Below are positions 1,927-25,185 of a DNA stretch of 33,339 nucleotides, piece by piece. How positions within the stretch are numbered: the stretch's first letter is position 1; every line of letters begins with the position of its first letter. A program made the position numbers and the translations under genes. Source of the DNA: a virus (taxonomy: Duplodnaviria; Heunggongvirae; Uroviricota; Caudoviricetes); IMG/VR virus record IMGVR_UViG_2671180294_000014; one strand, 5' to 3'. The notes below the pieces were generated by a model, which was not told where the DNA came from, made no database searches, and saw only the letters and a list, made by a program, of their open reading frames with translations.

Positions 1927-2423
1927 CAGTGATGACGCTCAATCTCGTCGAAAAACAGCCAGCAGCTATGCGCCGGATAATTGGTAAGCATCTTGCCGTC
2001 CCTCGTTGGCAGGATACATGTGATTATTATAATCAGATGATGGAGCGCGAACGGCTAACAGTTTGCTTTCATGCGCAGTTAAAACAACGTCACGCAACGA
2101 TGCGTTTTGAAGAAATGAACGACGTCGAACGTGAACGGCTGGTTTGTGCAATTGATGAATTGCGTGGGGCATTCTCAAAACGCCGTCAGGTTGGCGCAAG
2201 TGAGTATGCATATATTAGTTTTTTAACAGTCAGTCAGCGTCGTACTTTATTTATGCATGCCGGATTGACTGAAAAAGAATTCAATCAGCCATACTGGCGA
2301 ATTAATGAAGAGTCATGTTACTGGCGTGATGCTTTATTCCGTGCATTACGTGAACTATTCAGTCTGTTTGAGTATGCACCGACAATTCTGACGTCGGTAA
2401 AACCAGAGCAATATTTGCATTAA
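1923..2423 (+). CDS. B: Replication protein B (helicase-loader-like), 166 aa
   Basis: MTVMTLNLVEKQPAAMRRIIGKHLAVPRWQDTCDYYNQMMERERL matches the P2 gpB N-terminus and length. Confidence 0.9.
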   Translation: MTVMTLNLVEKQPAAMRRIIGKHLAVPRWQDTCDYYNQMMERERLTVCFHAQLKQRHATMRFEEMNDVERERLVCAIDELRGAFSKRRQVGASEYAYISFLTVSQRRTLFMHAGLTEKEFNQPYWRINEESCYWRDALFRALRELFSLFEYAPTILTSVKPEQYLH

Positions 2424-2453
2424 ATAATTAACCAGAGTTTTTAACGCACTTAA

Positions 2454-2711
2454 TTGTGCGGGGCTTCTTTTTGCCTGGAGAAAGTCATGCATACAGTTTC
2501 TGAAAATCAGTGCGGTAAATACGCATTACTGCTGCAACAGGCCAGAACCGAAGCACAGGCCGACGCTGCGACGCGCTTTTCTTCTCATCTTGACGCCATG
2601 ATTCGCCATATCACAAAGGCGGAGTTATCCCGCGTGGAGATAGTCGAGCTGCTCAGTCAGGAGTCGGAAAAATTTCACAATATCGGATTGTCTCGCGGGG
2701 AGGTGCTTTGA
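2454..2711 (+). CDS. Hypothetical early protein (P2 orf80 position), 85 aa
   Basis: ORF lying between B and A in the early operon. Confidence 0.6.
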
Positions 2712-3010
2712 TGTCCTGTTCTCATTCAGTTGTATTACTGAATAACGCCTTAAAAATCGCCGTTATGAAAAATGGCGACTTGTCTCTTATTCAACTTTGT
2801 CTTGATAAAGAAAAACGCGACATCACTGAATCTGTTATCGCGATTTATCAGAATGAATTAAACCTCCTGTCTGATGTGGTCAATTTACTTGTTAAACGCG
2901 CTGTATTCCACAAGCAAATTTCCTCAGTGGATGAACTGACAAAATTAACGACAGAACTTGCCAGTTATTGCGCTGATGTATCCAGGAAACTTAACGATAA
3001 AAGGAGCTGA
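2708..3010 (+). CDS. Hypothetical early protein (P2 orf81 position), 100 aa
   Basis: ORF whose start overlaps the previous stop. Confidence 0.6.
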
Positions 3011-3012
3011 TA

Positions 3013-3237
3013 ATGCCGGACAACATAGATTTTATTCAGGAACAACAGGCTGAATTACTGGAGCGCCAGATTAACGCGGCAAGGGTAAAACATTGCGGTG
3101 CTTCTGCGCTGGTTTGCGAAGAGTGTGACGCGCCAATTCCTGCTGCCCGTCGTGCGGCTTATCCGTCAGCCACGCGTTGTGTTTCCTGTCAGTCAGTCTT
3201 TGAAGCAAAAAACAAACATTACCGGAGAACGGCATGA
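3013..3237 (+). CDS. TraR/DksA-family C4 zinc-finger protein (P2 orf82-like), 74 aa
   Basis: CEEC...CVSC four-cysteine motif. Confidence 0.8.
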   Translation: MPDNIDFIQEQQAELLERQINAARVKHCGASALVCEECDAPIPAARRAAYPSATRCVSCQSVFEAKNKHYRRTA

Positions 3238-3509
3238 GTATTCGTATTGAAATTGGCGAACGTTATGTCGTTACCAGTGACAGCTTCCAGTTTATTCTCC
3301 ACGAGAAAAAGAGAGCGGAAAGCGGTAAAAACGCCGGTCAGGAATGGCTGGCGGTGGTTGGTTATTACCCGAAATTAAGCCAGCTCGTTTCCGGCCTGAT
3401 GCATCACGATATTCTGACCGGAAGCGCAAAGTCTTTTGCTGATTTAAACGCGCAGGTTGAGCAACTCAGCAAGCGTTGTTCAGAGGCTTTTGGCTCATAT
3501 GGCCGTTAA
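3234..3509 (+). CDS. Hypothetical early protein (P2 orf83 position), 91 aa
   Basis: ORF with overlapping stops and starts. Confidence 0.55.
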   Translation: MSIRIEIGERYVVTSDSFQFILHEKKRAESGKNAGQEWLAVVGYYPKLSQLVSGLMHHDILTGSAKSFADLNAQVEQLSKRCSEAFGSYGR

Positions 3510-5796
3510 AGCCTCCGGGCGTTTTGTCCCTCCGTCAGCATTTGCTGCAGGCACCGGTAAGGCGTTTACCGGTGCTTATGCATGGAACGCGCCACGCGAG
3601 GCTGTCGGGCGCGAAAGACCCCTTACACGTGACGAGATGCGTCAGGTGCAAGGTGTTTTATCCACGATTAACCGCCTGCCTTACTTTTTGCGCTCGCTGT
3701 TTACGTCACGCTATGACTACATCCGGCGCAATAAAAGCCCGGTGCACGGGTTTTATTTCCTCACATCCACTTTTCAGCGTCGTTTATGGCCGCGCATTGA
3801 GCGTGTGAATCAGCGCCATGAAATGAACACCGACGCGTCGATGCTGTTTCTGGCTGAGCGTGACCACTATGCGCGCCTGCCGGGAATGAATGACAAGGAG
3901 CTGAAAAAGTTTGCCGCCCGTATCTCATCGCAGCTTTTCATGATGTATGAGGAACTCAGCGATGCCTGGGTGGATGCGCATGGCGAAAAAGAATCGCTGT
4001 TTACGGATGAGGCGCAGGCTCACCTCTATGGTCATGTTGCTGGCGCTGCACGTGCTTTCAATATTTCCCCTCTCTACTGGAAAAAATACCGTAAAGGACA
4101 GATGACCACGAGGCAGGCATATTCTGCCATTGCCCGTCTGTTTAACGATGAGTGGTGGATTAGTCAGCTTAAAGGCCAGCGTATGCGCTGGCATGAGGCG
4201 TTACTGATTGCTGTCGGGGAGGTCAATAAAGACCGTTCTCCTTATGCCAGTAAACATGCCATTCGTGATGTGCGTGCACGCCGCCAGGCAAATCTGGAAT
4301 TTCTTAAATCGTGTGATCTCGAAAACAGGGAAACAGGCGAGCGCATCGACCTTATCAGTAAGGTGATGGGCAGTATTTCTAATCCTGAAATTCGCCGGAT
4401 GGAGCTGATGAACACCATTGCCGGTATTGAGCGTTACGCCGCCGCAGAAGGTGATGTGGGGATGTTTATCACGCTGACCGCGCCGTCAAAGTATCACCCG
4501 ACACGTCAGGTTGGAAAAGGCGAAAGTAAAACCGTCCAGCTAAATCACGGCTGGAACGATGAGGCATTTAATCCAAAGGATGCGCAGCGTTATCTCTGCC
4601 GTATCTGGAGCCTGATGCGCACGGCATTCAAGGATAATGATTTACAGGTCTACGGTTTGCGAGTCGTCGAGCCACACCACGACGGAACGCCGCACTGGCA
4701 TATGATGCTTTTTTGTAATCCACGCCAGCGTAACCAGATTATCGAAATCATGCGTCGCTACGCGCTCAAAGAGGATGGCGACGAAAGAGGAGCTGCGCGA
4801 AACCGTTTTCAGGCAAAACATCTTAATCGGGGCGGTGCTGCGGGGTATATCGCGAAATACATCTCAAAAAATATCGACGGCTATGCACTGGATGGGCAGC
4901 TCGATAACGATAGCGGCAGACCGCTGAAAGATACTGCCGCGGCTGTTACCGCATGGGCGTCAACGTGGCGCATTCCGCAATTTAAAACGGTTGGCCTGCC
5001 GACAATGGGGGCTTACCGTGAACTACGCAAATTGCCTCGCGGCGTCAGCATTGCTGATGAGTTTGACGAGCGCGTCGAGGCTGCACGCGCCGCCGCAGAC
5101 AGTGGTGATTTTGCGCTGTATATCAGCGCGCAGGGTGGGGCAAATGTCCCGCGCGATTGTCAGACTGTCAGGGTCGCCCGTAGTCCGTCGGATGAAGTTA
5201 ACGAGTACGAGGAAGAAGTCGAGAGAGTGGTCGGCATTTACGCGCCGCATCTCGGCGCGCGTCATATTCATATCACCAGAACGACGGACTGGCGCATTGT
5301 TCCGAAAGTGCCGGTCGTTGAGCCTTTGACTTTAAAAAGCGGCATCGCCGCGCCTCGGAGTCCTGTCAATAACTGTGGAAAGCTCACTGGTGGTGATACT
5401 TCGTTACCGGCTCCCACACCTTCTGAGCACGCCGCAGCAGTGCTTAATCTGGTAGATGACGGTGTTATCGAATGGAATGACCCGGAGGTTGTGAGGGCGC
5501 TCAGAGGTGCATTAAAACACGGACTGAGAAGACCAAACCGTCAGCAAAGAAACGGAAGCCCGTTAAAACCGCATGAAATAGCGCCATCGGCCAGACTGAC
5601 CCGGTCGGAACGAATGCAAATTACCCGTATCCGCGTTGACCTTGCTCAGAACGGTATCAGGCCGCAGCGATGGGAGCTTGAGGTGCTGGCGCGTGGGGCA
5701 ACCGTAAATTATGACGGGAAAAAATTCACTTACCCGCTCGCTGATGAGTGGTCGGGATTCTCAACAGTATTAGAGTCAAACTCAGTGAAGCGTTAA
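3499..5796 (+). CDS. A: Replication initiation endonuclease A (rolling-circle, P2 gpA-like), about 765 aa
   Basis: Large ORF containing the rolling-circle Rep active-site motif YIAKYISKNIDG with paired tyrosines. The likely start is MAVKASGRF at 3499, with an AGAGG Shine-Dalgarno. The ORF is open from 3457. Confidence 0.92.
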   Translation: MAVKASGRFVPPSAFAAGTGKAFTGAYAWNAPREAVGRERPLTRDEMRQVQGVLSTINRLPYFLRSLFTSRYDYIRRNKSPVHGFYFLTSTFQRRLWPRIERVNQRHEMNTDASMLFLAERDHYARLPGMNDKELKKFAARISSQLFMMYEELSDAWVDAHGEKESLFTDEAQAHLYGHVAGAARAFNISPLYWKKYRKGQMTTRQAYSAIARLFNDEWWISQLKGQRMRWHEALLIAVGEVNKDRSPYASKHAIRDVRARRQANLEFLKSCDLENRETGERIDLISKVMGSISNPEIRRMELMNTIAGIERYAAAEGDVGMFITLTAPSKYHPTRQVGKGESKTVQLNHGWNDEAFNPKDAQRYLCRIWSLMRTAFKDNDLQVYGLRVVEPHHDGTPHWHMMLFCNPRQRNQIIEIMRRYALKEDGDERGAARNRFQAKHLNRGGAAGYIAKYISKNIDGYALDGQLDNDSGRPLKDTAAAVTAWASTWRIPQFKTVGLPTMGAYRELRKLPRGVSIADEFDERVEAARAAADSGDFALYISAQGGANVPRDCQTVRVARSPSDEVNEYEEEVERVVGIYAPHLGARHIHITRTTDWRIVPKVPVVEPLTLKSGIAAPRSPVNNCGKLTGGDTSLPAPTPSEHAAAVLNLVDDGVIEWNDPEVVRALRGALKHGLRRPNRQQRNGSPLKPHEIAPSARLTRSERMQITRIRVDLAQNGIRPQRWELEVLARGATVNYDGKKFTYPLADEWSGFSTVLESNSVKR

Positions 5797-5882
5797 CTCA
5801 ATAAATATGAGTTTATAAGTTAGGCCTCGAGATTTTGTAGAAAGGGATGTATACTGAGTATCGTATAGATTTGGAGTGAGTG

Positions 5883-6905
5883 ATGACTGTAAAGGTGATA
5901 GACCTTTTTTGTGGTGCTGGCGGATTAACTCATGGTTTGCAGCTTGCGGGGCTTGATGTCGTTGCAGGCATTGACCTTGAGGGGGAATGTAGGTTTCCCT
6001 ATGAAAGAAACAATAAATCTAAGTTTATTGAGCAAGATATCGCTAAAGTAACAAAAGAGGAACTGCTGAGGCTTTATGGTGATGCGTCTGTAAAAGTATT
6101 GGCAGGATGCGCACCTTGCCAACCTTTTTCAAAATATACTCAAGGAAAAGATAAGGCTGATGATAAAAAATGGCCTCTTCTTTATGAGTTCGAACGTTTA
6201 ATTCGCGAAGTATCTCCAGAAATCGTAACAATGGAGAACGTTCCTGATGTAACTAAACATAAAGTTTATAATGATTTTTATAATTCATTGTTAAAGTTGG
6301 GCTATTATGTTTGGGCGTCTAAGATTGATTGTGTCGAATATGGAATCCCACAAAACCGTTCCCGTCATGTATTGTTGGCCTCAAAATTGGGGGCGATTGA
6401 GTTAGTAAAACGTGACGATGTTATTTTGAAAACAGTTAGAGATGCAATAGGAAATCTTCCTCCATTAGAAGATGGCCAAACAGATCCAAATGATATATTA
6501 CATAGAGCCAGTAAATTAAATCCGATTAATAAAAAAAGAATTATACACTCTGTTCCTGGTGGTACATGGAAGGACTGGCCGAAAGAGTTGGTTGCCGCTT
6601 GTCATATGAAATCCAGCGGTAAAGGGTATGCTAGTGTATATGGGCGCATGTCTTGGGATAAGCCAAGTCCAACAATTACAACTCTTTGTTATGGTTTCGG
6701 GAATGGGCGTTTTGGACATCCAGAACAGCATAGAGCGATTTCTCTTAGAGAGGCTGCTTTATTGCAAACTTTCCCGATGGATTATATTTTTGTAGAAGAC
6801 AAAAACAAGTTTGTTATAAGAAGTATTGGGAAAATGATAGGTAATGCTGTTCCTGTGGAACTAGGAAAAGCAATTGGGCAATCAATCAAGAACCATTTAG
6901 AATGA
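5883..6905 (+). CDS. DNA (cytosine-5)-methyltransferase, 340 aa, hotspot cargo
   Basis: The m5C-MTase motifs are all present: I DLFCGAGG, IV GCAPCQPFS (catalytic PCQ), VI MENVPDV, VIII QNRSRHVLLAS, and X IGNAVPV. A GGAG Shine-Dalgarno lies 6-7 nt before the ATG (the ORF track starts at a GTG at 5880). The gene is visibly AT-rich compared with the phage backbone. Confidence 0.92.
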   Translation: MTVKVIDLFCGAGGLTHGLQLAGLDVVAGIDLEGECRFPYERNNKSKFIEQDIAKVTKEELLRLYGDASVKVLAGCAPCQPFSKYTQGKDKADDKKWPLLYEFERLIREVSPEIVTMENVPDVTKHKVYNDFYNSLLKLGYYVWASKIDCVEYGIPQNRSRHVLLASKLGAIELVKRDDVILKTVRDAIGNLPPLEDGQTDPNDILHRASKLNPINKKRIIHSVPGGTWKDWPKELVAACHMKSSGKGYASVYGRMSWDKPSPTITTLCYGFGNGRFGHPEQHRAISLREAALLQTFPMDYIFVEDKNKFVIRSIGKMIGNAVPVELGKAIGQSIKNHLE

Positions 6906-6911
6906 TAAAAT

Positions 6912-6928
6912 GGCCTGCTTTACAGGCC
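6912..6928. terminator. Bidirectional hairpin terminator GGCCTG-cttta-CAGGCC between the convergent MTase and HEPN genes
   Basis: Six-bp GC stem flanked by an A-run on one side and T residues on the other. Confidence 0.6.
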
Positions 6929-6934
6929 TTATAA

Positions 6935-7615
6935 CTATTGTTCTAAATATTCATTATTATTTATATAGTGCTCTATATTATTCACGATAGCATCAAGATA
7001 GGCGATTACTTCTAATGAAATATTCTCTAAGTCCTGATATGAAACATTTTTTCCAATCTCAGCAAATGATACATTGCCATGAGATAAATCATTACGATGT
7101 TGTTTAACAGTGGCTAATTTTTCACCATGTTTAGTGTGAGTGTAATCGGAATGTGTAGAAAAACCATATATTTTCGATTTTTCTTTGATTTCCTCTCTAT
7201 CAATATTTCCTGAGAATATTTTCTTTTTGTTGAACGTGCCATAAGATATACCGCAAGATATACCTTTGGTAAGGTGATTAACTAAACTTTCAACATTTAC
7301 AGATTCATTTTTTAATCTTTTTAATATTTCTGACCTGAGATTTTTCCTGAGTTTGTCAAATTCTACGTTTCTATCATAAATAGTCTCATGAATAAGGCAG
7401 ATAGCTTCTCTCATTGTTGATTCAATGAGGTTATATAACAGTATATATACTGCTCCCTTTAGAGTTTTTCGTGATTGAGCAGTAATGGAGAACTTATGTT
7501 CTTTATCATCAGCTGATATCAGTTCTGCACCGGCATACTCAATAAATTTCAAAAGATCCAAATAGGCCAAGATCTCTCCTGACCTTTCGTCAAAATCCTC
7601 ACGAAAACGATCCAT
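6935..7615 (-). CDS. HEPN-like (putative RNase) protein, 226 aa, downstream partner of the DUF262 gene
   Basis: KQHRNDLSHG contains an R-x4-H HEPN-type motif near the C-terminus. The size is typical of small stand-alone HEPN proteins. The gene is AT-rich. It is translationally coupled to the upstream gene (…GAT TAA C ATG, with GAGGA Shine-Dalgarno). Confidence 0.55.
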   Translation of the reverse strand: MDRFREDFDERSGEILAYLDLLKFIEYAGAELISADDKEHKFSITAQSRKTLKGAVYILLYNLIESTMREAICLIHETIYDRNVEFDKLRKNLRSEILKRLKNESVNVESLVNHLTKGISCGISYGTFNKKKIFSGNIDREEIKEKSKIYGFSTHSDYTHTKHGEKLATVKQHRNDLSHGNVSFAEIGKNVSYQDLENISLEVIAYLDAIVNNIEHYINNNEYLEQ

Positions 7616-7616
7616 G

Positions 7617-8759
7617 TTAATCCTCTAATAATTTATCCCGAACATATTCAATTCGTTCAATTACCTTCACGCGACTATTAGCTCCGTCGGAAGTGGTCAA
7701 TCGTTTGAATTCTTCTGAGCTTAGCCAATCTAAGTTCTTGGGAACAAGGTCAGGGACTTCACGTAATGCAAGTGCTGCGCCAACAGCGAGAGATTCGAAT
7801 CTAACTCGAGGTGTAGATTTTGCAGTAATAGTTTTCTTGAATCCTGCTGGGAAATAGTTTTCAACAAAAGATAGAACATTAGCAAACTCTTGTTTCATTG
7901 AGTTTTGTTTAGTTTCGTCTATATCTCGATTTTCTGACATATAGTCATTTAGAAAATCCCGTACGGAATGATCAAAGTTCTTGTACTTATCTACGTAGGC
8001 AAAGAATCTTAATGTAAATTCTAACCGTTCATCTCGTTTTTCTTTAGTCTGAGATAAAGGTGCTAATTCTTTAAATTTAGGTATTGTTGAGCATGGCTTA
8101 ATAACCTGTGTATATAAATTTGTTGAACCAAGTTCTGATCCTTTACGGACTTCCATATCTTTCAATATATCGCTGCCAGAGTTAATACGCTCAAAAAGAT
8201 CTCTACGGGTTTCTTCATTGCATTTAGAACTCAATTCTATAACGCGGACAGGAATTCTCATGAAACGACGTTGACGTGATAATGGTAAATCTTGGAATTT
8301 GAAACCATTAAGGACGTCTAAAGATTTCAGGTCTTGTAAAACTAATTCATTTTGGATAAAAGCGTGTATAGTCCTAACTCGTTGTGAGCCATCAACAATC
8401 TCAATTCGCCCATCTAAATCGGGATCTTCGGAGAGAACATCTGCTATAAATATATATGGTATAGGAAAACCCAAAATCAAAGACTCTATCAATTTTGATT
8501 GTCTTTTTTCACTCCAAACAAAATCCCTTTGATAATCAGGAACAAAGAGTTCGTTAGTATCATCCTCTAATCCGTTATGATACTTATTAACTAATAACTC
8601 AACGGTAAATTCTTTGGTCTCAAAATCCACATCCTTTTGCTCAGCACGAATTTGCTCTTCAGCGTTTTGCTTTATCACCTCTAGCTGAGCAAGCAACTCT
8701 GCTCTTTTCTTGGCATTATCTTCATTTTCTAGTTGAGATTTTAAATCAATAATGTCCAT
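7617..8759 (-). CDS. DUF262 (GmrS/ParB-like NTPase-nuclease fold) protein, about 380 aa, with an N-terminal coiled-coil
   Basis: Hallmark DUF262 motifs are FVPDYQRDFVWS and IEIVDGSQRVRT (DGQQR-type). The first ATG is at 8759, with an AAGGGA Shine-Dalgarno 7 nt upstream. The ORF track extends to a TTG at 8777. Confidence 0.85.
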   Translation of the reverse strand: MDIIDLKSQLENEDNAKKRAELLAQLEVIKQNAEEQIRAEQKDVDFETKEFTVELLVNKYHNGLEDDTNELFVPDYQRDFVWSEKRQSKLIESLILGFPIPYIFIADVLSEDPDLDGRIEIVDGSQRVRTIHAFIQNELVLQDLKSLDVLNGFKFQDLPLSRQRRFMRIPVRVIELSSKCNEETRRDLFERINSGSDILKDMEVRKGSELGSTNLYTQVIKPCSTIPKFKELAPLSQTKEKRDERLEFTLRFFAYVDKYKNFDHSVRDFLNDYMSENRDIDETKQNSMKQEFANVLSFVENYFPAGFKKTITAKSTPRVRFESLAVGAALALREVPDLVPKNLDWLSSEEFKRLTTSDGANSRVKVIERIEYVRDKLLED

Positions 8760-8944
8760 GTCTAGTTCCCTTAACAAGTGTTAAAAATTGAAGCGGATAG
8801 CATACCGCATAGATCATGAAAAATGCCATCATGTGCATGGATTTGCATGCGTCAGAAGTCGCTTTTATTGTTAGTTATCACTAGCGCTGGCGTGCTCTTG
8901 GAGTGTTCATGCAACTGCATTAAAACCGCCCCATGAAGCGGGCG

Positions 8945-8963
8945 GGCGAGGCGGGGAAAGCAC
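8945..8963. other. cos cohesive-end sequence GGCGAGGCGGGGAAAGCAC (P2-type 19-nt cohesive end)
   Basis: Exact 19-nt match to the P2 cohesive end as I recall it. It lies between the hotspot and Q, where cos sits in P2. Confidence 0.7.
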
Positions 8964-9102
8964 TGCGCGCTGGCGGTGGTGCTGATTTTATTTTCCAGCG
9001 TCTCAGCGCGTCGTGACGGCGCTTAGTCTGCCCGTTGGGCGTTGGTGTGTCTGCGGGATTTTTTGTGCGGTGATGAGCGTGTGAGGGCGTGATGGCGGGG
9101 TG

Positions 9103-9124
9103 TAAAAAAGCCGCCCGCAGGCGG
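9103..9124 (-). terminator. Rho-independent terminator of the P-Q operon (GCCGCC-tgcg-GGCGGC followed by a U-run on the minus strand)
   Basis: GC stem-loop with a T-run on the coding (minus) strand 7 nt after the Q stop. Confidence 0.7.
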
Positions 9125-9130
9125 CGATGT

Positions 9131-10165
9131 TCAGCCGTTGTCAGTGTCCAGTGAGTAGTTTTTAAAGCGGATGACCTCCTGACCGAGCCAGCCGTTTATC
9201 TCGCGGATCCTGTCCTGTAACGGGATAAGCTCATTGCGGACAAAGACCTTTGCCACTTTCTCAATATCACCCAGCGACCCGACGTTCTCCGGCTTGCCCC
9301 CCATCAACTGAAAGGGGATGCGGTGCGCGTCCAGCAGGTCAGCGGCGCTGGCTTTTTTGATATTAAAAAAATCGTCCTTCGTTGCCACTTCACTGAGCGG
9401 GATAATTTTAATGCCGTCGGCTTTCCCCTGTGGGGCATAGAGAAACAGATTTTTAAAGTTATTGCGGCCTTTCGACTTAACCATGTTTTCGCGAAGCATT
9501 TCGATATCGTTGCGATCCTGCACGGCATCGGTGACGTACATGATGTATCCGGCATGTGCGCCGTTTTCGTAATACTTGCGGCGGAACAGCGTGGCCGACT
9601 CATTCAGCCATGCAGAGTTAAGGGCGCTGAGATATTCCGGCAGGCCGTACAGCTCCTGATTAATATCAGGCTCCAGCAGGTGAAACACGGAGCCGGGCGC
9701 GAAGGCTGTCGGCTCGTTGAAGGACGGCACCCACCAGTAAACATCCTCCTCCACGCCACGACGGGTATATTTGGCCGGTGAGGTTTCCAGTCTGATGACC
9801 TTACCGGTGGTGCTGTAACGCTTTTCCAGAAACGCATTACCGAACACCAGAAAATCCAGCACAAAACGGCTGAAATCCTGCTGGGAAAGCCACGGGTGCG
9901 GGATAAACGTTGAAGCCAGAATATTACGTTTGACGTAAATCGGTGAGCTGTGATGCACGGCAGCACGCAGGCTTTTTGCCAGACCGGTAAAGCTGACCGG
10001 CGGCTCATACCATCTGCCGTTACTGATGCACTCGACGTAATCCAGAATGTCACGGCGGTCGAGTACCGGCACCGGCTCACCAAAGGTGAATGCTTCCATT
10101 TTCGGGGCGCTGGCGGTGATTGTTTTTGCCGCAGGTCGCGGTGTTTTCCCTTTTTTCTTGCTCAT
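9131..10165 (-). CDS. Q: Portal protein Q, 344 aa
   Basis: The length is identical to P2 gpQ. It is the first gene beside cos, and its start overlaps the stop of P. Confidence 0.93.
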   Translation of the reverse strand: MSKKKGKTPRPAAKTITASAPKMEAFTFGEPVPVLDRRDILDYVECISNGRWYEPPVSFTGLAKSLRAAVHHSSPIYVKRNILASTFIPHPWLSQQDFSRFVLDFLVFGNAFLEKRYSTTGKVIRLETSPAKYTRRGVEEDVYWWVPSFNEPTAFAPGSVFHLLEPDINQELYGLPEYLSALNSAWLNESATLFRRKYYENGAHAGYIMYVTDAVQDRNDIEMLRENMVKSKGRNNFKNLFLYAPQGKADGIKIIPLSEVATKDDFFNIKKASAADLLDAHRIPFQLMGGKPENVGSLGDIEKVAKVFVRNELIPLQDRIREINGWLGQEVIRFKNYSLDTDNG

Positions 10166-11937
10166 CAGTAAAACTCCAGAATGGTGGATGTCAGCGGAGT
10201 GCTGATACCGGCGGTGAGTGGCTCATTTAACAGGGCGTGCATGGTTGCCCAGGCGAGGTCGGCGTGGCTGGCTTCCTCGCTGCGGCTGGCCTCATAGGTG
10301 GCACTGCGTCCGCTGCTGGTCATGGTCTTGCGGATAGCCATGAACGAGCTGGTGATGTCGGTGGCGCTGACGTCATATTCCAGACAGCCACGGCGGATGA
10401 CGTCTTTGGCCTTGAGCACCATTGCGGTTTTCATTTCCGGCGTGTAGCGGATATCGCGCGCGGCGGGATAGAACGAGCGCACGAGCTGGAACACGCCGAC
10501 ACCGAGGCCGGTGGCATCAATACCGATGTATTCGACGTTGTATTTTTCGGTGAGTTTGCGGATGGACTCCGCCTGGGTGGCAAAGTCCATGCCTTTCCAC
10601 TGGTGACGCTCAAGTATTCTGAATTTGCCACCGGCCACCACCGGCGGTGCCAGCACCACGCATCCGGCGCTGTCGCCACGGTGTGACGGGTCGTAACCAA
10701 TCCATACCGGGCGGGAGCCGAACGGATTTGCGGCAAACGGCGCGTAGTCTTCCCATTCTTCCAGCGTGTCGACCATGCAGCGTTGCAGCTCCTCGAACGG
10801 GAACACCGATACCTTGTCGTCAACAAATTCACACATGAACAGGTTTTTAAAATCGTCGGCGCTGTTTTCGCGTTTGAGCTGCTCAATGTCGAACAATGTG
10901 CAGCCGCCTTTCAGGGCGTCCTCAATGGTGACAATCTGCCGCCACTGGCCGTCCGCACAGAGAAGACCACCGGCAAGGGCGTTATGACTGACGTCGATTT
11001 CCACACGTTCGGCGGCGCTGGCGCGTCCCCGGTTGAACAGTTCACCCGACCAGAACGGGTAGGCGTCGTGCGCCAGCGTGGACGGGGTGGAGAAATAGGT
11101 CGAGCGCAGGTGACTCTGTGAGGCCATACCTGATGCCACCTTACGCAGTACCTGAAAATTCGGGATCCAGAAAATCTCGTCGACGTACAGGTCGCCGTTA
11201 TGGCTCTGTGCGGTGTTGGAGTTGGTGCCGAGAAAAATCAGTTTTGCGCCGTTATTGCCCAGGACAATCGGGTCACCGGTCAGGTCAACGTCAACCAGAC
11301 GAGCAAAGGCGATGATGTATTCACGGAACACATACGCCTGCGTTTTACTGGCCGACAGAAAAATCTGGTTATGGCCGGTTTTCAGGGCGCGCAGCAGCGC
11401 CTCGCGGGAAAAATAAAACGTCGCGCCAATCTGGCGGGATTTCAGGATATCGCGGATGCGGTGCTCAAGCCCGGCACGATACCAGTGCAACTGATAGTCG
11501 AAAGACTGCTCAAAGAAAATCTGCTCCAGCTTTTCGATGGCCTCGTCACTGAAAAAATTCTTTTTCGGTTTGCGACGCCCGCCTTTGTTGCGGTTAGCGA
11601 TGTTCGGATTAAGGTCTGCCTCGTTGCCGGTCTGGCTGTAGCGGTTTACCCGTGCCAGTCGTTCAATCTGGCGTCCGAGCAGGTCAATTTCCTTGAAGTC
11701 ACCGCCGGTTTTCTGCGGTTTGATGATGAGCTGGGTCAGCCGCGCTTCCAGACTCATTTCGACACGGCTGATGGGGGCAACACTGTCCCAGCCGTCGCGC
11801 TGTTTCCAGCTCTGCACCGTCGGGCGTTTCATCTGCAACATGGCGGCAATCTGCGGCACGGAAAACCCCTGCCAGTACAGCAGCGCCGCCTGACGACGCG
11901 GGTCGTGTAAAAGAGTGGTGTCTGTGGTGATGGTCAT
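10165..11937 (-). CDS. P: Terminase large subunit P (ATPase), 590 aa
   Basis: Starts at MTITTDTTLLHDPRRQAALLYWQGF, which matches P2 gpP. The ORF is open from 11967. Confidence 0.93.
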   Translation of the reverse strand: MTITTDTTLLHDPRRQAALLYWQGFSVPQIAAMLQMKRPTVQSWKQRDGWDSVAPISRVEMSLEARLTQLIIKPQKTGGDFKEIDLLGRQIERLARVNRYSQTGNEADLNPNIANRNKGGRRKPKKNFFSDEAIEKLEQIFFEQSFDYQLHWYRAGLEHRIRDILKSRQIGATFYFSREALLRALKTGHNQIFLSASKTQAYVFREYIIAFARLVDVDLTGDPIVLGNNGAKLIFLGTNSNTAQSHNGDLYVDEIFWIPNFQVLRKVASGMASQSHLRSTYFSTPSTLAHDAYPFWSGELFNRGRASAAERVEIDVSHNALAGGLLCADGQWRQIVTIEDALKGGCTLFDIEQLKRENSADDFKNLFMCEFVDDKVSVFPFEELQRCMVDTLEEWEDYAPFAANPFGSRPVWIGYDPSHRGDSAGCVVLAPPVVAGGKFRILERHQWKGMDFATQAESIRKLTEKYNVEYIGIDATGLGVGVFQLVRSFYPAARDIRYTPEMKTAMVLKAKDVIRRGCLEYDVSATDITSSFMAIRKTMTSSGRSATYEASRSEEASHADLAWATMHALLNEPLTAGISTPLTSTILEFY

Positions 11938-12003
11938 GAATACCTCGCCGTGATGAATACACGGCAAGGCTACTGAGTCGCGCCCCGCGATTCGCTAATG
12001 TGC

Positions 12004-23766: not shown

Positions 23767-25185
23767 CTACATCGGGCTCTTATATGGGGAATGAGAGTTT
23801 TTGAAACGCGGTTCTTCATGCTTCGGACTGTAAATTCTTGCATGATTATCTATCACAACTTTACTTCCAAGAATATCTCGAGCTTCTCCTAACGACCACA
23901 CAGTAGAAAGATCATTAGTCAAATTTCGATAGAGAGCACGAAACCCCTTGGGTTTTTTAAGATCATATAAGAAATCAGGAACTTTAACTTTAAAATTAAA
24001 GGTCGGTAGTTTCGGAAGGGAATTAATAGCCGCAACAGTATTGTATACATGTACAAGCTTAGTTACAGGTACACCTTGTCTAGTCTTGAGCCCATACTTA
24101 GTTCGAATATAATCTGATTCTTTCGATACTTCAGTAAGCAATGCTCTTACTGACTTATTAGCTTGAGGCAATTCATTTTCATCAAACAAGCGCTTTATTT
24201 CTCGCATTTTCTCACGGGCCCTTACAAATTCGTTGTTGTCCCTTATGTTATAAGCAGCTTCAACAATACAACTTGGATCACCAGTTTCTTTTGCGAGCCA
24301 TGCCGAAAATAAAGGAAGCGAAGTTGCTGTTGCTACAGCTTTACCACCAGAATGAATATCAATGAGATCATGACTTAACGAAGTGGAAAAGTTTTCTACA
24401 ATATGTTTAGCATAGTCAAAACCATACTGACAGTTTTGGCTTAAATATGTCTGTTGATACGCCTGACGTAATGGATATAAAAAAGTATCTGCTTGAAGGT
24501 ACTTAGCTGTGAGAGAATAAAATACTGCCCGATTAGCCAGCCATACAAGCGAAGCCACGAATGCTTTGATTGCATCTGATGCTTCACCAGCAGATGTGCC
24601 ATCCCCCCATTTTGCTCCGGGAACTTTGTACCCCTTGCGAATAGGGTTGCCAAATCGATCGAGAAGTTCAACATCGCCATTTGTTCTATTACCAGACTCA
24701 GCAGCATCACGCAGTTCTGAAAAAATGGCAGCAGCAATGTTACCATATTTTTCAAACTCCTTACCTCCATCAGATAAGTTCTTCAGTGTTAGATGATAAA
24801 CACTTGAACTAATGTCCCATGTACATATGATATGTGTCTGAAGAAGTTCAATTAGTTTTTTAAAATCGTCATTAACAAATGTTCCACCACGAATTTTAGG
24901 TTTCAATGCATCAGATATTTTTTTTGCTTCACTTTCAATTTCATCCAACCCATATTGTGCTTTATCAAGAAATAATATCTCTCTGAAACTTGAAATCCTA
25001 CTCCCACGGTACTCTGGAATATAATCATCAACCGCGATAACGTGATCATAGAACAAAATAGACTGTATATAGTTCTCAAATGCTATTATGTCTGTATCTA
25101 CTGAGTCCTTCGATCTTGTTTTTACTTTCCCCTCGATTCTTTGGACTGCAGTTAGAGTTGAATTATCAATCAGTGCGTATGTCAT
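23767..25185 (-). CDS. Hypothetical 472-aa protein, AT-rich cargo at the P2 Z/fun hotspot position. No recognisable catalytic motif, and no Walker A.
   Basis: Long ORF on the strand opposite to the flanking late genes. It has its own promoter and Shine-Dalgarno (AAGGA 7 nt before the ATG). Its codon and GC usage are unlike the phage backbone. Confidence 0.8.
   Translation of the reverse strand: MTYALIDNSTLTAVQRIEGKVKTRSKDSVDTDIIAFENYIQSILFYDHVIAVDDYIPEYRGSRISSFREILFLDKAQYGLDEIESEAKKISDALKPKIRGGTFVNDDFKKLIELLQTHIICTWDISSSVYHLTLKNLSDGGKEFEKYGNIAAAIFSELRDAAESGNRTNGDVELLDRFGNPIRKGYKVPGAKWGDGTSAGEASDAIKAFVASLVWLANRAVFYSLTAKYLQADTFLYPLRQAYQQTYLSQNCQYGFDYAKHIVENFSTSLSHDLIDIHSGGKAVATATSLPLFSAWLAKETGDPSCIVEAAYNIRDNNEFVRAREKMREIKRLFDENELPQANKSVRALLTEVSKESDYIRTKYGLKTRQGVPVTKLVHVYNTVAAINSLPKLPTFNFKVKVPDFLYDLKKPKGFRALYRNLTNDLSTVWSLGEARDILGSKVVIDNHARIYSPKHEEPRFKNSHSPYKSPM

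What the first reader, a model, noticed from the sequence alone, without database searches (positions are those of the whole stretch)
6935..8759. DUF262 protein translationally coupled to a small HEPN-like protein (split, non-canonical GmrSD-like architecture)
On the minus strand the upstream gene ends …TTA TTA GAG GAT TAA and the downstream ATG follows after a single C. The GAGGA Shine-Dalgarno for the second gene therefore lies inside the last codons of the first. This is classic translational coupling and implies a stoichiometric complex. The upstream protein has a roughly 60-aa charged coiled-coil N-terminus followed by a DUF262 core. The downstream protein lacks the EHIxP-type His-Me finger of DUF1524 (GmrD). 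It instead carries KQHRNDLSHG, which matches the Rx4-6H signature of HEPN RNases (Abi_2/AbiD-F-like RNxxxH). Replacing a DNase effector with a putative RNase would turn a restriction module into a candidate abortive-infection system.
Basis: partly seen in the sequence, partly recalled or inferred. Interest (0 to 1): 0.8.

Follow-up and report, generated by a model that had tools for sequence, protein, structure and literature searches.

The report
Prophage DUF262–HEPN–methylase defence cassette

Summary
On the minus strand a 380-aa DUF262/GmrSD_N gene (7617-8759) ends GAG GAT TAA, and one base later the ATG of a 226-aa gene (6935-7615) begins. That gene is a clear MAE_28990-family HEPN protein with an invariant R174-x4-H179 motif and a confident HEPN-fold model.

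- **Not a split GmrSD.** It belongs to a known class, a DUF262 sensor paired with a HEPN effector. PD-T4-2 is the experimentally validated example of that class.
- **Three genes, not two.** An orthologous C5 cytosine methyltransferase (5883-6905, convergent) travels with the pair from E. coli, Klebsiella and Moraxella prophages to Vibrio and cyanobacteria. It sits next to the pair in three different gene orders.
- **A sister lineage lacks the methylase.**
- **Known location.** The cassette lies in the P2 gpA–portal defence hotspot.
- **Already published.** This domain string, sharing the methylase accession of a 97.8% identical E. coli cassette, is listed in Rousset 2022's supplementary tables. 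The operon type was described by Anantharaman 2013. RefSeq already names the HEPN protein.

Most likely mechanism (inferred): methylation marks self DNA, DUF262 reads DNA status, and HEPN cleaves RNA. No member of this methylase-linked subfamily has been tested. Interest is low to moderate.

The parts
5883..6905 (+). C5 cytosine DNA methyltransferase (Dcm/HaeIII-like). It is the conserved third gene of the cassette and is convergent with the HEPN gene.
   Evidence: PF00145 E 3.4e-58, TIGR00675 130 bits. Motifs FCGAGG, PCQ, ENV, QNRSR and GNAVP are visible in the translation. RefSeq start in L001. Orthologues 51-56% identical lie next to the pair in 36 loci.
6912..6928 (.). GC-rich hairpin (GGCCTG-TAAAG-CAGGCC) between the two convergent stop codons. 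Terminator-like for the DUF262-HEPN transcript and possibly bidirectional.
   Evidence: Terminator scan; sequence.
6935..7615 (-). 226-aa MAE_28990-family HEPN protein, the putative RNase effector.
7079..7096 (-). HEPN catalytic signature R174-N-D-L-S-H179 (Rx4H).
   Evidence: R174, N175, D176, L177, H179 and G180 are invariant in 25 sequences. The motif is retained in all inspected cyanobacterial loci.
7613..7625 (-). Gene junction GAGGA-T-TAA-C-ATG. The Shine-Dalgarno sequence sits inside the last codons of the DUF262 gene, with 1 nt between stop and start.
   Evidence: Same junction in the 89%-identical allele. Junctions of -8 to +6 nt in 73 of 81 loci.
7617..8759 (-). 380-aa DUF262 (ParB/Srx-fold NTPase) protein with a C-terminal helical 'ParBDB'-type domain and an N-terminal helix of about 40 aa. 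Putative DNA sensor and switch.
8379..8393 (-). DGSQR, the DGxQR nucleotide-binding motif of DUF262 (D123-R127).
   Evidence: D123, G124, S125, Q126 and R127 are invariant in 36 sequences. Motif role as described for GmrSD, SspE and NsnA in PMC10952713 and PMC12065111.
5800..8800 (.). Low-GC cargo island (30-40% GC) holding all three genes, between P2 gpA (3457-5796) and the portal gene (9131-10165). This is P2 defence hotspot #1.
   Evidence: Composition profile; annotation of the syntenic E. coli prophage; hotspot described in PMC9519451 and PMC9122126.

Best explanation
The locus is a mobile three-gene anti-phage cassette carried as cargo in the gpA–portal hotspot of a P2-like prophage.

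**Shown.**
- The cassette encodes (1) a C5 cytosine methyltransferase, (2) a DUF262/ParB-fold protein with an intact DGxQR nucleotide-binding motif and a C-terminal helical domain, and (3) a MAE_28990-family HEPN protein with an intact Rx4H site.
- Genes 2 and 3 form one tightly coupled operon.
- Gene 1 is convergent and is co-inherited with them.

**Inferred.**
- The methylase marks the resident DNA at its target sites.
- The DUF262 protein acts as an NTP-driven DNA sensor, as in GmrSD, BrxU and SspE, and reads that modification state. It holds the co-translated HEPN partner inactive.
- DNA that lacks the mark, or carries foreign modifications, switches the DUF262 protein and releases or activates the HEPN dimer.
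- HEPN then cleaves RNA (tRNA, rRNA or mRNA) and stops phage growth, probably at the cost of the infected cell.

In short, this is restriction-modification logic with an RNase as the effector instead of a DNase.
For: **Domain identities.**

**Pair conservation.** A DUF262 gene lies directly upstream of the HEPN gene in every one of 81 non-redundant loci, out of 433 species-level genome hits. The junction is -8 to +6 nt in 73 of them.

**Methylase linkage.**
- An orthologous C5 MTase (51-56% identical to the window's) is adjacent in 29 of 70 loci with full flanks.
- It appears in three different arrangements: 33 convergent downstream (19 with a 4-nt overlap of the 3' ends), 2 upstream and co-directional, and 1 downstream and co-directional.
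- The hosts include cyanobacteria, Vibrio, Bacteroidales and Pyrinomonadales (Acidobacteriota).
- The trio also occurs in lambdoid Klebsiella prophages, Moraxella phages and Peduovirus P24B2.
- In the DUF262 tree, 31 of 33 MTase-less loci fall on one side of a single split that contains no MTase-linked locus.

**Co-inheritance.** The three genes share low GC, equal dS (0.47-0.53) and strong purifying selection.

**Defence role.**
- The cassette sits in the P2 hotspot.
- The DUF262+HEPN pair PD-T4-2 protects against T4 both when cloned and in its native strain.
- PD-lambda-5, a ParB/HEPN fusion plus a Dam-like MTase, gives broad protection.

**Sensor role of DUF262.** Described for GmrSD, SspE and BrxU in PMC10952713 and PMC12065111.
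Against: - No experiment exists for this subfamily. Complex formation, NTPase activity, RNase activity, the target RNA, the methylase's recognition site and an abortive outcome are all untested.
- PADLOC has no model that matches the HEPN protein, so homology to PD-T4-2B is only at Pfam-clan level.
- Intact DUF262-HEPN pairs persist where the methylase is deleted (L021, L022) or frameshifted (P24B2). A whole sister lineage has no methylase. The pair is therefore not necessarily self-toxic without methylation. This weakens the simple 'unmethylated DNA is the trigger' version.
- The methylase might instead be needed to license the sensor, as phosphorothioate does for SspE.
- Anantharaman 2013 read the ParB-like protein as the DNase of an R-M system rather than as a sensor.
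Confidence: 0.5

Rival explanations
1. R-M system plus an RNase back-up (the Anantharaman 2013 or PrrC model). The ParB-like DUF262 protein is itself the DNA-cleaving restriction subunit and is paired with the C5 methylase. The HEPN RNase is kept silent by binding to it. HEPN fires only when a phage anti-restriction factor disables the R-M pair.
For: [quoted passage not shown] Convergent R and M genes with separate promoters are typical of type II R-M systems. The methylase linkage is conserved. PADLOC also gives a weak REase_II hit for the DUF262 protein (9e-6).
Against: In the characterised DUF262 proteins (GmrSD, BrxU, SspE), DUF262 is the NTPase and sensor, and cleavage is done by DUF1524. 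DUF1524 is absent here. The MTase-less sister lineage and PD-T4-2 work without a methylase. A DNase with no protecting methylase would be self-destructive unless it were modification-dependent.
Confidence: 0.2
2. Type IV-like, modification-dependent system. The DUF262 protein recognises foreign modified DNA (for example hmC or glucosyl-hmC of T-even phages), as in GmrSD and as suggested by PD-T4-2's anti-T4 activity. HEPN is the effector. The neighbouring methylase is not the self-mark but serves the phage in another way, for example protection from host restriction.
For: PD-T4-2 (no methylase) was selected on T4 and protects against T-even phages. Rousset 2022 labels a Vibrio 'DUF262 + DUF262/DndB + HEPN_MAE_28990' locus as type-IV restriction. 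The pair survives loss of the methylase. An MTase-less clade exists.
Against: An unrelated moron would not stay adjacent, as one orthologous family, across phyla and in three gene orders. It would not co-diverge with the pair or share its dS.
Confidence: 0.15
3. This is a self-contained two-gene abortive-infection module (a split GmrSD with its DNase swapped for an RNase), and the methylase is irrelevant.
For: The pair is universally conserved and coupled. The HEPN identity is confirmed. Two-gene versions exist in nature.
Against: The window's lineage is the methylase-linked one. The DUF262 protein is NsnA/PD-T4-2A-like, not a GmrS half.
Confidence: 0.1
4. Addiction (toxin-antitoxin-like) module that stabilises the prophage. 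HEPN is the toxin and DUF262 and/or the methylase is the antidote. There is no primary anti-phage role.
Against: The location is a hotspot whose cargo is overwhelmingly anti-phage. Related pairs have demonstrated defence activity. In eight Microcoleus-type loci an intact HEPN gene persists next to a DUF262 gene cut down to its N-terminal 177 aa.
Confidence: 0.05

Closest known systems
MAE_28990 HEPN gene neighbourhood of Anantharaman et al. 2013 (Biol Direct 8:15, PMC3710099)
   Same: Same HEPN family (PF18737) and same three partners. [quoted passage not shown] Cyanobacterial members recovered here have the same trio.
   Different: Nothing architectural differs. That paper is purely computational and treats the ParB-like protein as a DNase. 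The prophage-hotspot context was not described there.
P2 hotspot cargo list of Rousset et al. 2022 (PMC9122126, supplementary tables)
   Same: [quoted passage not shown] WP_001697730 is the methylase accession in the 97.8%-identical E. coli cassette L001.
   Different: It is listed only. I found no sign that it was cloned or tested.
PD-T4-2 (Vassallo et al. 2022, PMC9519451)
   Same: A two-gene DUF262 then HEPN operon (HEPN of RiboL-PSP/MAE_28990 type by HHpred) from an E. coli isolate. It is validated against T4 when cloned and in the native strain. The window's DUF262 protein hits the PD-T4-2_A model at 2.4e-35.
   Different: PD-T4-2 is smaller (1540 nt for both ORFs; B model 168 positions) and has no methylase. 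The window's HEPN protein does not hit PD-T4-2_B at E<=1. The DUF262 protein scores higher on the NsnA model.
PD-lambda-5 (Vassallo et al. 2022)
   Same: It contains a ParB-fold domain, a HEPN-like domain and a DNA methyltransferase. The authors call it a 'compacted prophage version of an RM+Abi system', and it gives broad protection.
   Different: ParBc (not DUF262) and a weak HEPN are fused in one protein. The methylase is Dam-like N6A (PF02086), not C5. No PADLOC PD-Lambda-5 hit for the DUF262 or HEPN proteins; for the methylase only the best 25 of 58 families were shown, so not assessed.
GmrSD / BrxU / SspE (DUF262 + DUF1524 enzymes)
   Same: DUF262 NTPase domain with a DGxQR motif followed by a helical DNA-binding domain. 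They act as modification-sensing defence proteins.
   Different: They are single polypeptides whose effector is the DUF1524 His-Me DNase or nickase. Here there is no DUF1524, and the effector is a separate HEPN protein.
Menshen NsnA (NsnABC)
   Same: Best PADLOC match, covering nearly the full length (1.6e-54; ParB-DUF262 + ParBDB architecture).
   Different: There is no NsnB ABC-ATPase or NsnC effector gene next to it. The effector is HEPN and a methylase is attached.
PrrC–EcoprrI
   Same: A HEPN RNase functionally tied to a restriction-modification system. It is the precedent for R-M-gated RNase suicide.
   Different: PrrC has an ABC-ATPase N-domain and sits inside a type Ic hsd operon. There is no sequence relationship beyond the HEPN superfamily.

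Membership tests
MAE_28990/MAE_18760-like HEPN (PF18737) | Profile match above the curated cut-off over the whole domain | tested here: met
   102.2 bits against a cut-off of 26.8, residues 5-223 on profile 6-211/211. 40% identical to cyanobacterial members.
MAE_28990/MAE_18760-like HEPN (PF18737) | Conserved Rx4-6H catalytic motif | tested here: met
   R174 and H179 are invariant, with N175, D176, L177 and G180, in 25 sequences.
MAE_28990/MAE_18760-like HEPN (PF18737) | All-helical HEPN fold | tested here: met
MAE_28990/MAE_18760-like HEPN (PF18737) | Metal-independent RNase activity | not testable with these tools
   Needs an in vitro or in vivo RNA cleavage assay.
DUF262 / GmrSD_N (PF03235) | Profile match above the cut-off, with the N-terminal P-x-YQR-x-F/Y-x-W and DGxQR motifs | tested here: met
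   91.9 bits against 33.2. VPDYQRDFVW and DGSQR are invariant in 36 sequences.
GmrSD-type type IV restriction enzyme | DUF1524 His-Me finger nuclease domain, fused or as a GmrD partner | tested here: not met
   No DUF1524 hit in either protein at E<=1. The downstream partner is HEPN.
PD-T4-2 | PD-T4-2_A (DUF262) component | tested here: met
   PADLOC PDLC04027 E 2.4e-35, residues 73-372 on 55-356/363. NsnA scores higher.
PD-T4-2 | PD-T4-2_B (small HEPN) component | tested here: not met
   No PADLOC family at E<=1 for the 226-aa protein. The protein is 226 aa against a 168-position model. I could not obtain the PD-T4-2B sequence for a direct comparison.
PD-T4-2 | Two-gene operon DUF262 then HEPN, and protection against T-even phages | tested here: inconclusive
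   The operon layout is met. The phenotype is not testable. The window's lineage has an extra methylase that PD-T4-2 lacks.
Menshen (NsnABC) | NsnA plus an adjacent NsnB ABC-ATPase and NsnC effector | tested here: not met
   An NsnA-like protein is present. The only neighbours are HEPN and a C5 MTase; no ATPase gene lies in 5800-9130.
Restriction-modification-like system with a cognate C5 methylase | Catalytically complete C5 MTase genetically linked to the nuclease or effector genes across taxa | tested here: met
   PF00145 198 bits and all canonical motifs. Orthologue adjacent in 36 loci in three arrangements, and also in Klebsiella, Moraxella and P24B2 phages.
Restriction-modification-like system with a cognate C5 methylase | Methylation protects self DNA from the system | not testable with these tools
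   Indirect evidence is mixed. Intact pairs exist with a deleted or frameshifted methylase.
PD-lambda-5 | ParBc-HEPN fusion protein plus a Dam-like N6A methylase | tested here: not met
   Here the proteins are separate, the ParB-fold domain is DUF262-type and the methylase is C5. No PD-Lambda-5 PADLOC hit for the DUF262 or HEPN proteins; the methylase's PADLOC list was truncated to 25 of 58 families.

The most novel reading that the evidence does not exclude
The methylase-linked lineage may be a true 'RNA-targeting restriction-modification system'. A C5 methylase would write the self mark. A DUF262 NTPase would read m5C status on DNA, either as an inhibitor of firing or, like phosphorothioate for SspE, as a licence for it. 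The only effector would be a HEPN RNase, so that recognition of non-self DNA is converted directly into RNA cleavage. The methylase-less sister clade and the eight 'mini' loci that keep only the DUF262 N-domain would then be natural rewirings of the same switch toward modification-dependent (type IV-like) sensing.
Probability: 0.3. Interest if true: 0.6.

Novelty: already known. Interest (0 to 1): 0.3.

Why it matters
The find does not add a new kind of system. It gives a well-delimited, compact (2.9 kb) and very widespread cassette in which a DUF262 sensor is wired to an RNase and to a cognate methylase.

No DUF262–HEPN system has a published mechanism in the library searched. No solved structure is related by sequence to either protein.

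The methylase-linked and methylase-less sister lineages offer a ready-made comparison. They could show how DUF262 NTPases tell self from non-self DNA and how they pass the signal to a separate effector.

Practically, current PADLOC models would miss this cassette, because the HEPN component has no model. Defence-system censuses of prophages therefore probably under-count it.

Tried and rejected
- **PD-T4-2 sequences.** I tried to obtain the PD-T4-2A/B sequences (ECOR65, QOYX01000002) for a direct comparison. They did not appear in the word-indexed searches, and only the top 150 of 1714 profile hits are listed. Membership rests on the PADLOC models only.
- **Other P2-hotspot HEPN partner.** A profile-profile comparison of the MAE_28990 alignment with the RiboL-PSP-like partner from L090-L093 gave no relationship (hhalign probability 0.2%).
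- **PDB sequence searches.** The HEPN profile and the DUF262 protein found nothing.
- **Methylase specificity.** It could not be inferred. The best PDB relatives (M.HaeIII, DNMT1, M.HhaI) match only the conserved catalytic parts.
- **Abortive or direct action of PD-T4-2.** This is marked only in a figure, so I could not read it.
- **Promoter for the DUF262 operon.** The consensus scan found no sigma-70-like site upstream of 8759, and overall it found fewer sites than shuffled sequence gives.
- **Conserved third gene in the methylase-less clade.** I considered and rejected this. The only recurrent neighbour is a housekeeping-like 890-aa gene, reflecting synteny in Nostocales.
- **Split GmrSD.** Rejected because there is no DUF1524.
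Full report
**What is in the window.**
The window is a P2-like (Peduovirus) prophage. Its first 25 kb match phages such as fiAA91-ss, P2_AC1 and Yersinia phage P37 at 95-97% identity. The integrase, gpA replication endonuclease (3457-5796), portal (9131-10165) and terminase (10165-11967) are in P2 order. The finding lies between gpA and the portal gene. This is the variable locus that carries tin/old in P2. Rousset 2022 and Vassallo 2022 describe it as a hotspot for anti-phage cargo. The segment 5800-8800 has 30-40% GC against 52-58% on both sides, so it is imported cargo.

**Check of the observation.**
Both minus-strand ORFs exist as described.
- The junction reads GAG GAT TAA C ATG. GAGGA lies five bases before the start codon of the second gene.
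- The upstream 380-aa protein matches GmrSD_N/DUF262 (PF03235, 92 bits).
- The downstream 226-aa protein matches HEPN_MAE_28990 (PF18737, 102 bits against a cut-off of 27) and, more weakly, HEPN_RiboL-PSP. Neither protein has a DUF1524 domain.
- In an alignment of 25 relatives down to 34% identity, R174, N175, D176, L177, H179 and G180 are invariant.
- An AlphaFold model built on that alignment is confident (pLDDT 91, pTM 0.87).
- The DUF262 protein keeps the VPDYQRDFVW and DGSQR motifs, which are invariant in 36 relatives.
- Its model shows an N-terminal helix of about 40 residues, the ParB-like core and a helical C-terminal domain. It has weak structural matches to BrxU, a Dnd-associated DUF262 protein and SspE.
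- All three cassette genes have dN/dS of 0.06-0.08 and equal dS against an 89%-identical E. coli allele, which keeps the same junction.

**The pair elsewhere.**
A profile of the HEPN protein finds 1714 clusters (at 50% identity) in 1.8 billion representative proteins and relatives in 433 species-level genomes. I analysed the 80 fetched loci plus those from direct look-ups.
- Every locus has a DUF262 gene immediately upstream on the same strand.
- In 73 of 81 non-redundant loci the stop-to-start distance is -8 to +6 nt, mostly ATGA or TAATG overlaps or 2-nt gaps.
- The strong GAGGA is restricted to the enterobacterial branch. The conserved feature is the tight juxtaposition, not the Shine-Dalgarno sequence.
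- This is good evidence for an obligate two-gene operon. It is compatible with a complex but does not prove one.

**The missed third gene.**
The convergent gene at 5883-6905 is a complete C5 cytosine methyltransferase. It matches PF00145 at 198 bits, and motifs I, IV (PCQ), VI (ENV), VIII (QxRxR) and X (GNAVP) are present.
- *Linkage.* An orthologue 51-56% identical lies next to the pair in 29 of 70 loci with complete flanks.
- *Arrangements.* There are 33 cases downstream and convergent (19 with a 4-nt overlap of the 3' ends), 2 upstream and co-directional, and 1 downstream and co-directional.
- *Hosts.* They include Nostocales, Oscillatoriales, Microcystis, Vibrio, Pseudoalteromonas, Methylococcales, a Bacteroidales MAG and Pyrinomonadales.
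- *Other phages.* The same trio, 85-86% identical, sits between the replication genes and the antiterminator/RusA genes of lambdoid Klebsiella pneumoniae prophages, where it is listed in 487 blocks of the collection's index. It is also found in Moraxella catarrhalis phages and in Peduovirus P24B2.
- *Sister lineage.* In a neighbour-joining tree of the DUF262 proteins, 31 of 33 methylase-less loci fall on one side of a single split that contains no methylase-linked locus. The two exceptions, L021 and L022, have lost the methylase by deletion, and L021 keeps an 83-aa remnant. The methylase-less clade has no other conserved partner.

So there are two sister lineages, a three-gene one to which the window belongs and a two-gene one.

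**Prior knowledge.**
- RefSeq already annotates the proteins as 'DUF262 domain-containing protein' and 'MAE_28990/MAE_18760 family HEPN-like nuclease'.
- Anantharaman et al. [quoted passage not shown] They propose a PrrC-like R-M-plus-RNase strategy.
- Rousset et al. [quoted passage not shown] The methylase accession they give is the one in the 97.8%-identical E. coli cassette. I found no evidence that it was tested.
- Vassallo et al. 2022 validated PD-T4-2 (DUF262 + RiboL-PSP/MAE_28990-like HEPN, no methylase) against T4 in K-12 and in its native strain. They also validated PD-lambda-5 (ParB/HEPN fusion + Dam-like methylase), which they call a compacted RM+Abi system.
- No paper in the library gives a mechanism for PD-T4-2. 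MAE_28990 is mentioned only in the 2013 paper.

**Classification.**
The window's DUF262 protein matches the PADLOC NsnA model best (1.6e-54, near full length) and PD-T4-2_A second (2.4e-35). The HEPN protein matches no PADLOC model. The locus therefore fails the formal PD-T4-2 test (B component) and the Menshen test (no NsnB or NsnC). It fails the GmrSD test because there is no DUF1524. It works like PD-T4-2 and PD-lambda-5, but it is best filed as the MAE_28990–ParB–methylase neighbourhood of the 2013 survey.

At the same P2 hotspot I found two further variants.
- P24B2 carries a trio with DUF262 45% identical, HEPN 30% identical and methylase 72-76% identical but frameshifted.
- An IMG/VR prophage carries a methylase-less pair. 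Its DUF262 protein is 33% identical, and its HEPN partner shows no detectable sequence relationship to the window's.

In the P24B2/Moraxella branch the methylase is far better conserved than the sensor and effector; in the window's own lineage the HEPN protein diverges fastest while the DUF262 protein and the methylase diverge about equally.

**Mechanism.**
Shown: the domain identities, intact catalytic motifs, operon coupling, co-inheritance with a cognate methylase, mobility among temperate phages, and location in a defence hotspot.

Inferred from characterised DUF262 proteins (GmrSD, BrxU and SspE act as NTP-dependent readers of DNA modification) and from HEPN biology:
- The methylase marks resident DNA.
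- The DUF262 protein reads modification status.
- The co-translated HEPN RNase is released or activated on non-self DNA.

Two observations caution against the simplest R-M reading. Intact pairs persist after methylase loss, and a whole sister clade lacks a methylase. The methylation mark might therefore license the sensor, as with SspE, rather than simply protect self DNA. The main rival is the 2013 model, in which the ParB-like protein is the DNase and HEPN is a second line of defence.

**Verdict.**
What remains open is the mechanism, which is experimentally very tractable.

**Limits.**
- The 80 loci are the best-scoring of 433 and are dominated by cyanobacteria.
- The tree is a simple NJ tree.
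- ORF starts were taken as the first start codon.
- No multimer prediction or biochemical test was possible.

Noticed in passing
window 23767-25185 (-): A 472-aa ORF with no Pfam or PADLOC match. It sits between the tail-fibre genes and the tail-sheath gene, which is the second variable/defence locus of P2-like phages (the fun/Z position). RefSeq calls it 'hypothetical protein', and only 7 of 5426 complete E. coli genomes carry it in full. It is a candidate uncharacterised defence gene.
   Followed up: partly
L044, L064, L070, L074, L078, L080, L086, L087 (Microcoleus and other Oscillatoriales), about 4335-5690 in each locus: These are 'mini' versions of the pair. The DUF262 ORF is cut down to its N-terminal ~177 aa (the ParB/NTPase core; the C-terminal helical domain is absent). 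It lies 48-112 nt upstream of an intact HEPN gene that keeps RNDLAHG. The short ORFs are 66-73% identical to the full-length Microcoleus reference (L066), so they look conserved rather than freshly broken.
   Followed up: partly
L088 (Peduovirus P24B2, NC_049387) 2021-3041: At the same P2 hotspot the C5 methylase is split into two frames at about residue 227, by a frameshift or a sequencing error. It is 72-76% identical to the window's methylase, whereas the adjacent DUF262 and HEPN proteins are only 45% and 30% identical. This points to exchange or fast divergence of the sensor-effector pair next to a conserved methylase.
   Followed up: partly
Rousset 2022 supplementary table, system 131; L090 2861-4609: The published entry 'HEPN_RiboL-PSP | DUF262' ('Likely a RNAse', 19 occurrences) shows a DUF262 sequence 99.7% identical to the E. 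coli cassette's DUF262 protein, paired with a 202-aa HEPN. In IMG/VR that HEPN sits directly after a different DUF262 protein (33% identical), with no methylase, next to the P2 portal gene. Either a recombinant exists or the table mixes representatives.
   Followed up: partly
L095-L098 (Klebsiella pneumoniae chromosomes), 5001-7886: The same trio (DUF262 85-86% identical) is cargo in lambdoid prophages, between the replication genes and the RusA/antiterminator genes. It is very common in Klebsiella, listed in 487 blocks of the collection's index. In one assembly (L097) the HEPN gene is called as a 160-aa N-terminally shortened product.
   Followed up: no
L089 (Moraxella phage Mcat32) 4135-4867: The deposited annotation starts the HEPN gene at 4334 (177 aa). 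However, tblastn similarity to the window's HEPN protein runs from 4166, so the gene is probably full length and mis-annotated.
   Followed up: no
L084 1813-2091 and 4018-4980: The DUF262 gene of a Microcoleus locus is interrupted by about 2 kb, with N-terminal 93 codons upstream and the rest downstream. This suggests an insertion element inside the gene.
   Followed up: no
window 8760-9130: The 370-nt spacer between the DUF262 start and the portal stop holds two strong terminator-like hairpins on the minus strand (9110-9125 and 8926-8945). No consensus sigma-70 promoter for the DUF262-HEPN operon was found there, so how the operon is transcribed in the lysogen is unclear.
   Followed up: no
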